From Hormiphora californensis (lineage: Eukaryota > Animalia > Ctenophora): a stretch of DNA of 64,000 bases. The stretch lies in assembly GCA_020137815.1 (NCBI GenBank), contig CM035359.1, positions 682,001-746,000 of the forward strand, given 5' to 3'. Positions 537 through 64,000 of this stretch are shown here, piece by piece (position 1 is the first letter of the stretch; each line of letters begins with the position of its first letter). The position numbers and the translations under genes are program-made. The notes under the pieces were generated by a model. It ran no database searches. It had not been told where the DNA came from and saw nothing but the letters and a program-made list of their open reading frames with translations.

Positions 537-3500
537 CTACTACTACGTTCACTGAGTCATGTGACACTCTGTAACCATCCTTTAGATAGTTCCTAGCTGA
601 ACAGTTAAACACCCTCTCACTGGCGTACTGGACACTTGTTATGGTCAGGGTGGAGATCACTGCTGTGGTATTGTCACCAATCACTGGAGGGGGGGGGGGT
701 AGTTAGTTATGTAGCTCTAATACAGTTAGTTACCTATATGGGGAAATATCCACGCAATTAGGAGGGGCGGAACAAATCAGAAGTAGGTCAACAAGATACA
801 CAACAGTCTAAGTAAGTCTTTTTACTCACCCACGTTTTCCATCCGAATATCAATATTCTTGTTGTTCACCAGATACCCGTTACTAGCCCACTCAATAACA
901 TCTGAAAAACACAGGGAGTTTATTACAAAACAAGGAAACCTGTTACTTGATTTAGTCGGCGAAGTGTTGTGAAGTTGTTGTTACTGCCCTTTCAGCTAGA
1001 TTTACCTTTCAATGTGTTGACAAGAGAACAATGACTAAACTAGAGCCACATGTGTGTGATTCAATAAGTCACACACAATTTAACATGTTAGACACATGTG
1101 AGTGGTGATAGTGTAGAACCAACAGCTACAGTTGTATTGGGACAATGTGATTGTTTCTTTGGATACATTAGGGCTCCACTACAATATCTTGAGTCCAGTG
1201 GTAGAATGATGACATTCAAGAATATTATTGTATGTGAGTGTTTGAGATAGTGGGGGAGTGTTTGAGATAGTATTCTAGACATAGTGTTACATTAAAGGAC
1301 GTAGTGCGAGAAAGTGTGTCAACACACACAGGTGTGAAATATGTGGGGGGGGGGGGGGCGGAGGACATGGCAGTATTACACACGCACACATCTGTCTGTC
1401 AGTCTGTAGTGTTGGTCTGTCCGTTTGTCTGTCTATAGTGTTAGTCCACTAAAAGTAATACCTGGTAGCGGTTCCCCAACACCCCATACCCCACCCAATA
1501 CATTCCCAAAGTGTAACAAATACCTGGTAGTGGCTCCCCTGCTGCGGAGCACTGTAGAACAAGAGGTTTCCCATAAACACCAGTCAACAGTCTGGCCTTG
1601 GCTTGTACCTCCACCGGTGAAACTGAGAGAGAGAATGGGATACAAAGATGGGCAAAACAATATTTTATAAGCAGCCACCCAATTTATCAGCACCCCCCCC
1701 CCCCAATTTAAATCAGGGTCAGACTGTAGAACATACCATATTTGGTCACATAACATACCATATTTGGTCACAATGACCCTGGTATCAGTATACACGTTAT
1801 CTTCGTATCTGTTACTGGAAGTACAAGAGTAGTTTCCCCCGTTCTGGGGACCCACGTCATACAACGTTAATACAGACATGATGTCCTCTCCATACGATAC
1901 CGTCTCTATATCTTCTGTTATTGTCTGTAATGGGAGGGAAATTGGTATCGAAGACACCTCCTACTCTGTTTAGCTCAGGTCGGCGGGCGACCTTCGCGCG
2001 CGCGCGCGCGCTGGCAAGGGGTAACTTCGTAACCAAGGAGGGAAATTGGATCATAAACAGTAAACAGAGGTCCTAAACTTGTTCTAATTATTAGTTTAAT
2101 TGTTATTAGTGCAGTGAGGAGTAAACCTAAATTCACAATGTGGAGAGAGTGATTGAACTAAATTCAGCGCTCTTCTCTCCAGCCCCATTGCTAGTTTTAA
2201 TGCATGCTTGTACGTGTGTGTGTGTAGTACACAACGTTGTAGTAGGGAATTACCGAAATTACCATTAATTATCTCTTGCTATCTCTCTCTCTCTCTTTTT
2301 TTTCTTCTCTCTCTCTGTCTCTCTCTCTGTCTCTCTCTCTGTCTCTGTCTCTCTCTCTCTCTCTCTCTCTCTCTCTCTCTCTCTCTCTCTCTCTCTCTCT
2401 CTCTCTCTCTCTCTCTCTCTTCACGTGCTCATTCCAGTTCTACAGTTAATATATTTCTATTTCTAGGCCTCATACTAATAATGCAATCATAATATGATGA
2501 AGACAGTTAGATACAATGAACAGAATATATAGATGATGAAAAGAAAAGGAGCATATTTTATTTATTGTTTATTGTATATTATAATTAGTACTGGAATAGC
2601 GTAACAAATGTGTCCTGAATTATTGACACTCTAAATTACCATATAATTTCATGGCTACATTTCGACCGTCATATTACAGTGTTATATAAGTGCTGCATAT
2701 TGGTATAAAAGTTAATAAGTCGAAGCAATGGTCGACAATTTCTTATTTTAGAAGGAATTCTGCTGAAAAGTAATAACATTACTTTTACATAGTACGTTGT
2801 TAATTGTAAGGTACATATATTGGAGTTTCAATGGGGATTTGGATCGATAGGTCTACTAAGGTGAGTTACTCCCAAGCTATCGCTATGATAGTGTGTATGA
2901 TACAATCATCTGAAATTCTGATATCATCATGGGTCCTACACGAAAATCAAACACCATTATATATGGGCATATATCACGTGACGTGACACACAGCACCATA
3001 TATGGGCATGACGCATTACAGACACCATATATGGGCATCTCACCTCATTGTTTAGCATCCAAGTTATCTCTGAGGCGGGAGGATAACCAGTTGCATTACA
3101 TGTTATCCTCTCTGTTAACCCTGACTCTAGCTCCGCTCTGTAGGGAGCCCCAATCTCAATGGGTGATACTGAGAGAGAGAGGGGGGTGTTAGAAACTGGG
3201 AGGGGTATCATGTGGATATTAATCAGAGTTTCATGGTGCAGCAGATAAATTTGGGATATGAGGAGGATTATATGTGGTAGAGGATATGTGGAGGATAGTG
3301 TGTGTGTTCTGGCAATATTTCGTGTCCCACACACCCCATTGCAGCAGCTGTACAGCTCAAAATGTGTATTTTTCTTCTCAAGGAGTCACTCTCCCAATCT
3401 AGAACTCTCTAGCTTACTCTCCTGCTTGTGTGTGTGACAGTTATGCACTACAGGAGCTGTATAACAGCTGCATATAATACAGGGTGTCCCACTGCAGCTG

Positions 3501-64000: not shown

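What the first reader, a model, noticed from the sequence alone, without database searches (positions are those of the whole stretch)
1455..63545. Systematic tandem duplication of splice junctions, creating decoy splice sites
Seen: at least 15 exon boundaries have extra copies of the exon end plus splice site extending into the intron. Donors: about 1455, 1731, 9660-9800 (3 extra), 12715-12915 (about 5), 17625-17675, 27768-27845 (2), 35570-35612. Acceptors: about 6295, 8618, 15852, 23750-24130, 24390-24705 (5), 25000, 35378-35460 (2), 63325-63545 (4). The exon-proximal copy gives the conserved reading frame, and distal copies that I checked (35384, 35600, 63340) add stops. Inference: a duplication mechanism is focused on exon-intron borders and tolerated through strict exon definition; it could supply raw material for intron growth, micro-exons or NMD-coupled isoforms.
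Basis: partly seen in the sequence, partly recalled or inferred. Interest (0 to 1): 0.78.

Follow-up and report, generated by a model that had tools for sequence, protein, structure and literature searches.

The report
Splice-junction "mirage" repeats carrying other alleles
In two genes of what is likely a comb jelly, about one exon edge in six has been copied, splice signal included, into the neighbouring intron, a repeat type already known from lancelets ("mirages") that splicing likely skips, and here the copies differ from the working exon mostly by silent changes, likely because they came from other working alleles.

Summary
I curated 43 exons (85 junction ends) of an Ig-domain gene and a FAM135-like gene. 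Fourteen ends are copied into the adjacent intron, giving 30 decoy sites; all keep GT/AG, and 24 score within 1 bit of the live site or higher. Three arrays are supported by contigs from a second sample. One array is absent from one contig of that sample and from a related species.

Enrichment depends on the null: none per base, 3-7x per event, 1.2-2.4x after masking mobile DNA. Wholly intronic repeats also hug junctions, so the bias is to intron edges, not splice sites as such.

Use of 29 of 30 decoys would give a stop or frameshift. Homologous proteins fit the exon-proximal sites in the FAM135-like gene; no RNA tested decoy use.

Decoys differ from the live exon at 16 synonymous and 4 nonsynonymous sites. 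One decoy state is the live state in the relative, which points to inter-allelic exchange.

The class is known: amphioxus mirages and the human F7 VNTR. This scan already reported it, with the synonymous bias, in other windows of this genome.

The parts
537..17865 (-). Host gene 1: Ig-domain protein, 23 exons found (at least one missing between 6219 and 8481; 5' start not found)
   Evidence: one exon hits Pfam Ig_3 weakly (E 0.0017, below the curated cutoff)
20387..63685 (+). Host gene 2: FAM135-like (DUF676 esterase), 20 exons, 812 aa open with exon-proximal sites, runs off the window
   Evidence: 72% identical to P0128 and 64% to P0126; P0128 has DUF676
1457..1539 (-). Donor copy: 16 exon nt + GT, 62 nt into the intron; 2 synonymous differences
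1730..1772 (-). 22-bp tandem duplication of a donor, 14 exon nt, no differences
6186..6320 (-). Acceptor copy at 97 nt, 34 exon nt; 2 synonymous and 1 nonsynonymous difference
   Evidence: missed by the strict scan
8571..8651 (-). Acceptor copy at 47 nt, 22 exon nt; one codon changed (Leu to Pro)
9648..9827 (-). 43-bp donor array, 3 decoys, 21-27 exon nt
12683..12923 (-). 34-43-bp donor array, 6 decoys, 10 exon nt
15817..15888 (-). 36-bp acceptor duplication, only 5 exon nt
   Evidence: spanned exactly by an X5 contig 15724-16064
17626..17815 (-). Donor copy at 137 nt, 49 exon nt; 2 synonymous differences
23686..24136 (+). ~37-bp intronic array abutting an acceptor, only 5 exon nt shared (marginal case)
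24388..24746 (+). Acceptor array, 5 decoys, 31-42 exon nt, 5 synonymous and 0 nonsynonymous differences; decoy 24653 in frame and open; array absent in organism B and in one X5 contig
25124..25165 (+).
   Evidence: spanned by X4 and X5 contigs
27724..27843 (+). 43-bp donor array, 2 decoys, 27 exon nt; 3 synonymous differences
35381..35490 (+). 37-38-bp acceptor array, 2 decoys, 30 exon nt, no differences
35536..35613 (+). 36-bp donor duplication, 29 exon nt, followed by a 930-bp 12-mer array
   Evidence: both copies recur in a noisy rendering near 47325-47390
63304..63563 (+). 46-54-bp acceptor array, 4 decoys, 19 exon nt

Best explanation
These are mirage-type minisatellites: 14 of 85 junction ends are copied with their GT or AG into the adjacent intron, likely as tolerated by-products of frequent short duplication near intron edges, with exchange between divergent alleles likely supplying many of the copies. 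Shown: the copies, their intact dinucleotides, the presence/absence of one array, and the synonymous bias. Inferred step 1: duplications of 20-140 bp arise more often near intron ends; those wholly inside exons are purged. Inferred step 2: a duplication across a junction leaves one complete exon plus splice site, so it survives if the spliceosome keeps using the site next to the full exon (exon definition), with nonsense-mediated decay clearing rare errors. Inferred step 3: exons are likely the best-matching islands between highly divergent alleles. Unequal exchange or gene conversion that starts in the exon and resolves in the poorly alignable intron edge would pair a young copy from one allele with the live exon of another. 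Inferred step 4: slippage and unequal crossover then expand or delete the arrays.
For: Counts and coordinates. All 30 decoys keep GT/AG; 24 of 30 score within 1 bit of the live site or higher, so weakness does not explain skipping. Using a decoy gives a stop in the extended exon (27 of 30) or a frameshift (2 of 30). Homologues align without insertion across the copied FAM135 junctions. Edge bias: non-microsatellite repeats cover 0.30-0.35 of intron at 11-200 nt from a junction, 0.08 beyond 800 nt and about 0 in exon interiors. Of 42 wholly intronic repeat families, 11 end within 15 nt of a junction against 4.4 expected (P 2e-4; masked, 12 of 29 vs 6.1, P 0.002). Dispensable and recent: the 24388-24746 array is replaced by 29-71 other letters in both organism-B contigs and by 33 letters in one X5 contig, while other X5 contigs carry it. 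Allele origin: 16 synonymous vs 4 nonsynonymous differences over 321 sites; 22-28% synonymous is expected from decay (P 6e-8 to 2e-6) and 36-43% if the live exon also drifted (P 8e-5 to 9e-4); 11 vs 4 without the largest family (P 1e-4 to 0.017). The two-base Leu change CTA to TTG at 24723/24725, seen in two decoys, is the live-exon state in both X19 contigs and in X17. All 28 displayed variants in these two exons across X5, X17 and X19 are synonymous, so alleles and relatives differ in the same way as the decoys. Precedent: PMC3087553 and PMC3902484 (passages), PMC1557585 (abstract and Discussion).
Against: No RNA from an array-bearing allele was seen, so skipping of decoys is inferred. The only RNA-labelled run (X22) is about 11% divergent and touched no confirmed mirage. 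Gene 1 junctions have no homologue check. A residual 1.2-2.4x excess of spanning copies remains under the strictest nulls, which pure tolerance does not need, and the mask was drawn by hand. The edge-hugging signal weakens at 30 nt (masked, 13 of 29 vs 10.0, P 0.09). Two families differ only by nonsynonymous changes and five show no difference, so not all copies need an allelic origin. Allele matching was checked at one locus and 2 of its 5 sites; the other three were not among the displayed rows. In the window's own species the TTG state shows in one X5 contig near its end and could be a decoy copy. For acceptors, first-AG scanning (as cited in the Discussion of PMC1557585) would favour the upstream decoys, so the acceptor side needs exon definition that is untested here.
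Confidence: 0.62

Rival explanations
1. Pure background plus survival: the genome makes minisatellites everywhere in old, non-transposon intron DNA, which happens to lie next to exons. Junction-spanning copies are simply the survivors, and copies arise within one chromatid by slippage. The synonymous bias would come from later change of the live exon.
For: Per-base null shows no enrichment (13/83 vs 0.145, p=0.43). The strictest per-event nulls give 13 vs 9.6-10.5 (P 0.17-0.25). Five of 14 families are identical to the live exon.
Against: Equal-time drift predicts at most 36-43% synonymous differences against 80% observed. The array at 24388 has 5 synonymous and 0 nonsynonymous differences in 42 nt. 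Wholly intronic repeats end within 15 nt of junctions more often than placement within their own intron predicts.
Confidence: 0.2
2. A splice-junction-directed mutational process: transcription- or splicing-coupled breaks, nucleosome-edge breaks, or RNA-templated repair from pre-mRNA (possibly of the other allele) duplicates DNA specifically at exon-intron borders.
For: 3-7x per-event excess against all intron. Both donors (8) and acceptors (6) are hit. An intact LINE reverse transcriptase ORF lies in the window (49555-52581). A template from the other allele would also explain the synonymous bias.
Against: The excess falls to 1.2-2.4x with masking. Repeats without any splice site share the edge bias. 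No copy joins two exons, as a spliced template would; all are local and head-to-tail.
Confidence: 0.12
3. The copies are functional: alternative or poison splice sites under selection, which would keep them synonymous and tune expression through nonsense-mediated decay.
For: 30 of 30 keep GT/AG and 24 of 30 are strong. The synonymous bias is what coding selection would give. Decoy 24653 is in frame and open.
Against: The best-studied array is missing from the related species and from one contig of a second sample. Homologues lack the 17-aa insertion. 29 of 30 decoys cannot give an intact protein, so protein-level selection on them has no target. Intact dinucleotides are expected in young copies.
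Confidence: 0.05
4. Assembly artefact: local duplications made by a long-read assembler, for example by stitching two haplotypes side by side, which would also give synonymous differences.
For: The assembly is locally faulty: 37700-48300 holds 70-81% identical noisy re-renderings of neighbouring DNA, and exon 11101-11223 has an apparent 1-nt frameshift.
Against: Contigs of a second sample and study span or enter three arrays with 0-1 differences, including the array with the most synonymous differences. Arrays hold up to 6 diverged decoys.
Confidence: 0.03

Closest known systems
Amphioxus 'mirage' minisatellites (Adh3, globins BflGb6 and BflGb9, troponin C, PGBD5). Seen: PMC3087553 and PMC3902484, passages found by term search; the original Adh3 and troponin C papers were not read.
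   Same: Tandem units of tens of bases that span an exon-intron boundary on either the donor or acceptor side, keep AG/GT, vary in copy number between haplotypes, and are reported not to disturb splicing. PMC3087553 already proposes them as raw material for intron gain and calls their origin unclear.
   Different: Here a likely ctenophore rather than a cephalochordate. Density is 14 of 85 junction ends in two neighbouring genes. Differences from the live exon are 80% synonymous, and one matches the live state of a relative; the passages I read do not report this.
Human F7 intron 7 37-bp VNTR (PMC1557585; abstract, outline and Discussion read)
   Same: The first unit holds the true donor; identical downstream pseudo-sites are functional but unused, and the most upstream site wins.
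   Different: A single donor-side locus with experimental splicing data. Here six acceptor-side cases also occur, where simple 5'-to-3' scanning would pick the decoy, and there is no splicing assay.
Intron gain by tandem genomic duplication (Rogers model; PMC3265369, PMC4974935, PMC2891723 seen as search listings only)
   Same: Short tandem duplication that includes splice signals, with the redundant part spliced out.
   Different: Those cases duplicate exon-internal proto-splice sites and make a new intron; here existing junctions are copied and an existing intron is lengthened. No new intron was seen.

Membership tests
Mirage minisatellite (as described in PMC3087553) | Tandem repeat unit spans an exon-intron boundary | tested here: met
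   14 of 85 junction ends, 5-49 exon nt per unit
Mirage minisatellite (as described in PMC3087553) | Many units keep AG/GT splice signals | tested here: met
   30 of 30 decoys; 24 of 30 within 1 bit of the live site or stronger
Mirage minisatellite (as described in PMC3087553) | Both 5' and 3' boundaries can be duplicated | tested here: met
   8 donors and 6 acceptors
Mirage minisatellite (as described in PMC3087553) | Length instability between haplotypes | tested here: met
   One locus only: array-free and array-bearing contigs in X5, array-free in X17 and X19
Mirage minisatellite (as described in PMC3087553) | Normal mRNA splicing is not disturbed | tested here: inconclusive
   Homologous proteins are colinear with proximal-site use; no RNA of array-bearing alleles
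Mirage minisatellite (as described in PMC3087553) | Somatic instability (reported for Adh3) | not testable with these tools
   Only contigs were served, no raw reads
Mirage minisatellite (as described in PMC3087553) | Concerted evolution of inner units | not tested
   No tree of units was built; one search shows four variant patterns among the five copies at 24388-24746
Intron gain by tandem duplication (Rogers model) | The duplication creates a new intron from exon sequence | tested here: not met
   All 14 cases copy a junction into an intron that already exists; at 24243-24704 the intron is present without the array in organism B

The most novel reading that the evidence does not exclude
In a hyper-polymorphic comb jelly, recombination between divergent alleles starts in exons, the only well-matched islands, and mis-resolves at the intron edge. 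This deposits pieces of the other allele's exon end with its splice site into the intron at roughly one junction in six. Introns would then hold a dated archive of functional alleles, and exon edges would be recombination-driven duplication hot spots genome-wide, giving a mechanism for mirages, whose origin the lancelet paper calls unclear.
Probability: 0.35. Interest if true: 0.7.

Novelty: new member of a known kind. Interest (0 to 1): 0.42.

Why it matters
The class is known, but from a handful of loci. A genome with mirages at about 16% of junction ends supplies thousands of natural competitions between identical splice sites, including acceptor-side cases where first-AG scanning predicts the wrong site. 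That would allow a test of exon definition in an early-branching animal. If the copies come from other alleles, they explain how mirages form and record past exon variation. In practice they will mislead gene predictors and short-read splice mapping in these genomes.

Tried and rejected
No RNA holder was listed for 23000-28500. X22, an RNA guess with the same species label, gave one contig consistent with the join 20479/20579 and one whose loose end matches the previous exon joined at 25036. It differs at 12 of 106 letters and touches no confirmed mirage, so it is no test of decoy use. A short X22 piece ending at 17653 continues with unrelated letters and was treated as chance. The first read layer (14810-27420) was dominated by mobile elements, so joints at arrays were not displayed. 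Dropped before the counts: 1-536, the intergenic 17866-20386, and the block 36548-59690 (noisy duplicates, LINE, nested genes); repeats of period 6 or less in most settings; the marginal acceptors 24131 and 25035 in the 14/30 counts. A candidate exon at 56845-56964 was rejected: it breaks the frame, and exon 35461-35564 joins 60919 in phase. The exon missing from gene 1 between 6219 and 8481 was not found. The last row (family-level count) used a miscount (6 instead of 7) and is not used. The ORF at 26113-27126 had no Pfam hit. Literature searches with zero papers: ctenophore + minisatellite + splice site; mirage + exon-intron boundary + synonymous + allele; tandem repeats + near splice sites + enriched + intron ends. 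Searches gave nothing relevant in their listings. These cover open-licence PMC and bioRxiv only. Supplements of PMC3087553 (mirage alignments) were not opened and may bear on whether lancelet copies are also synonymous-biased.

Full report
What the window is. It is animal DNA with two intron-rich genes. Gene 1 (minus strand, 537-17865) has 23 exons with Ig-like translations (one weak Ig_3 hit). Gene 2 (plus strand, 20387-63685) is FAM135-like: 20 exons give 812 codons without a stop, 72% and 64% identical to unnamed proteins P0128 and P0126, with named FAM135/DUF676 relatives further out. That the animal is a comb jelly rests on my recall of its repeat motifs and on earlier notes of this scan; no named hit in my calls shows it. 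No whole genome was held.

The observation. A self-comparison blind to gene structure found 13 of 85 junction ends spanned by a local copy lying in the intron. A site-anchored scan added the acceptor at 6219. The 14 families hold 30 decoy sites, 19-293 nt from the live site, each with 5-49 exon bases. The array before 24132 shares only 5 exon bases, and the '25000' acceptor passed neither scan. The donor at 25131 is new.

Are they real? Contigs of X5, a second sample and study, span 15817-15888 exactly and 25124-25165 with one difference, and match 24252-24439 and 24611-24702 exactly. X4 agrees but may be the window's own sample. The assembly has faults elsewhere (37700-48300 holds 70-81% identical noisy re-renderings), so read checks for the rest are still wanted.

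Is it more than chance? It depends on the null. Per base, a junction is no more often inside a repeat than an intronic position (0.157 vs 0.145, p=0.43; vs 0.100 beyond 300 nt, p=0.067). That null is inflated by expanded arrays. Per founding event, 13 are seen against 2.2-4.3 expected from all intron, 3.1-6.1 after collapsing extra copies, and 6.7-10.5 after a generous hand mask of mobile DNA (P from 6e-7 to 0.25). Repeat cover is 0.30-0.35 at 11-200 nt from a junction, 0.08 beyond 800 nt, and near zero in exon interiors. Repeats with no splice site also end next to junctions (11 of 42 within 15 nt vs 4.4 expected; weaker at 30 nt). The fair reading is a bias of duplication toward intron edges, with at most a modest further excess of copies that cross the junction.

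Splicing consequences. All 30 decoys keep GT or AG. Twenty-four score within 1 bit of the live site or above it on matrices trained on the 85 live sites. Thirteen are in frame, and 12 of those bring a stop; 17 are out of frame. Only 24653 would give an intact 17-residue insertion, and P0126 and P0128 lack it. Both homologues align without insertion across the six copied junction ends of gene 2, so the proximal sites give the conserved protein. No RNA tested decoy use: X22 is about 11% divergent and touched no confirmed case.

Age and origin. At 24243-24704 both contigs of organism B run from the intron into the exon with 29-71 other letters in place of the array. One X5 contig does the same with 33 letters, while other X5 contigs carry the array. 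This array is therefore recent and likely polymorphic. Prompted by earlier notes e1-10582703 and e1-10417509 and, I classed the differences between decoys and live exons: 16 synonymous and 4 nonsynonymous over 321 sites. Decay of a dead copy predicts 22-28% synonymous, and equal-time drift of both copies 36-43%. The excess survives counting by codon (14 vs 3) and dropping the largest family (11 vs 4; P 0.009-0.017 against equal-time drift). The double change CTA to TTG at 24723/24725 in two decoys is the live state in organism B, and all 28 displayed variants in these two exons are synonymous. Young copies that differ from the live exon as alleles do are most simply explained by exchange between alleles. 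This is inference; it was matched at one locus and two sites, five families show no difference and two differ only nonsynonymously.

Comparison. [quoted passage not shown] PMC3902484 (one passage) adds PGBD5 and troponin C. PMC1557585 (abstract and Discussion) shows that human F7 pseudo-donors are functional but unused. The window meets four of the mirage features tested, and the splicing feature is inconclusive. Three searches found no paper on ctenophore cases, on synonymous bias, or on intron-end enrichment, within open-licence PMC and bioRxiv. The scan itself has reported the same pattern in at least five other windows of this genome and in other invertebrates; these are unreviewed notes, and they gave me the mirage name and the allele reading.

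Verdict. Real, dense and a new member of a known kind. Most likely a tolerated by-product of edge-biased duplication with inter-allelic exchange (0.62). Interest 0.42; 0.7 if the allele-exchange mechanism holds genome-wide.

Noticed in passing
window 37700-48300: Noisy, 70-81% identical re-renderings of 35500-36550 (on both strands) and of 54630-59640, with homopolymer runs 2.5x as dense in 37800-44000. It looks like unpolished read sequence or a false duplication inside the 25-kb intron of gene 2.
   Followed up: partly
window 36899-37550 and 44722-45370, minus strand: Two about 94% identical copies of a GPCR-like gene (transmembrane 6-7-like translation; the label is my recall) nested antisense in the FAM135-like intron. 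They may be alleles or tandem paralogues.
   Followed up: partly
window 49555-53900, minus strand: LINE-like element with two open frames (476 aa; 1008 aa endonuclease/reverse-transcriptase-like by recall), flanked by about 700-bp inverted copies of another element (roughly 48340-49030 and 53990-54630, read by eye).
   Followed up: no
window 11101-11223, minus strand: Exon of gene 1 reads as Ig sequence in one frame up to about 11160 and in another after it; likely a 1-nt assembly error or a broken allele.
   Followed up: partly
window 26113-27126, plus strand: 338-codon open frame in a high-copy intronic element that looks like the 3' part of a Penelope-type retroelement (by recall); no Pfam hit.
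   Followed up: partly
window 5650-5800: tRNA-like sequence inside a gene 1 intron, probably a SINE; not scanned.
   Followed up: no
introns of both genes: Two short motifs crowd intron ends: a palindromic 10-mer (23 of 24 hits within 300 nt of a junction) and an AT-rich 13-mer (10 of 12 hits over both orientations within 100 nt). They may seed duplications or act as splicing elements.
   Followed up: partly
window 24132-24242 and 24705-24803, run X19: The two organism-B contigs differ from each other at 15 or more displayed sites in 210 exon bases, all synonymous against the window: very high silent diversity.
   Followed up: partly
window 55480-59420: A 49-bp array interrupted by two nested elements with long inverted ends (read by eye), around a 170-codon open frame at 56340-56852.
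   Followed up: no
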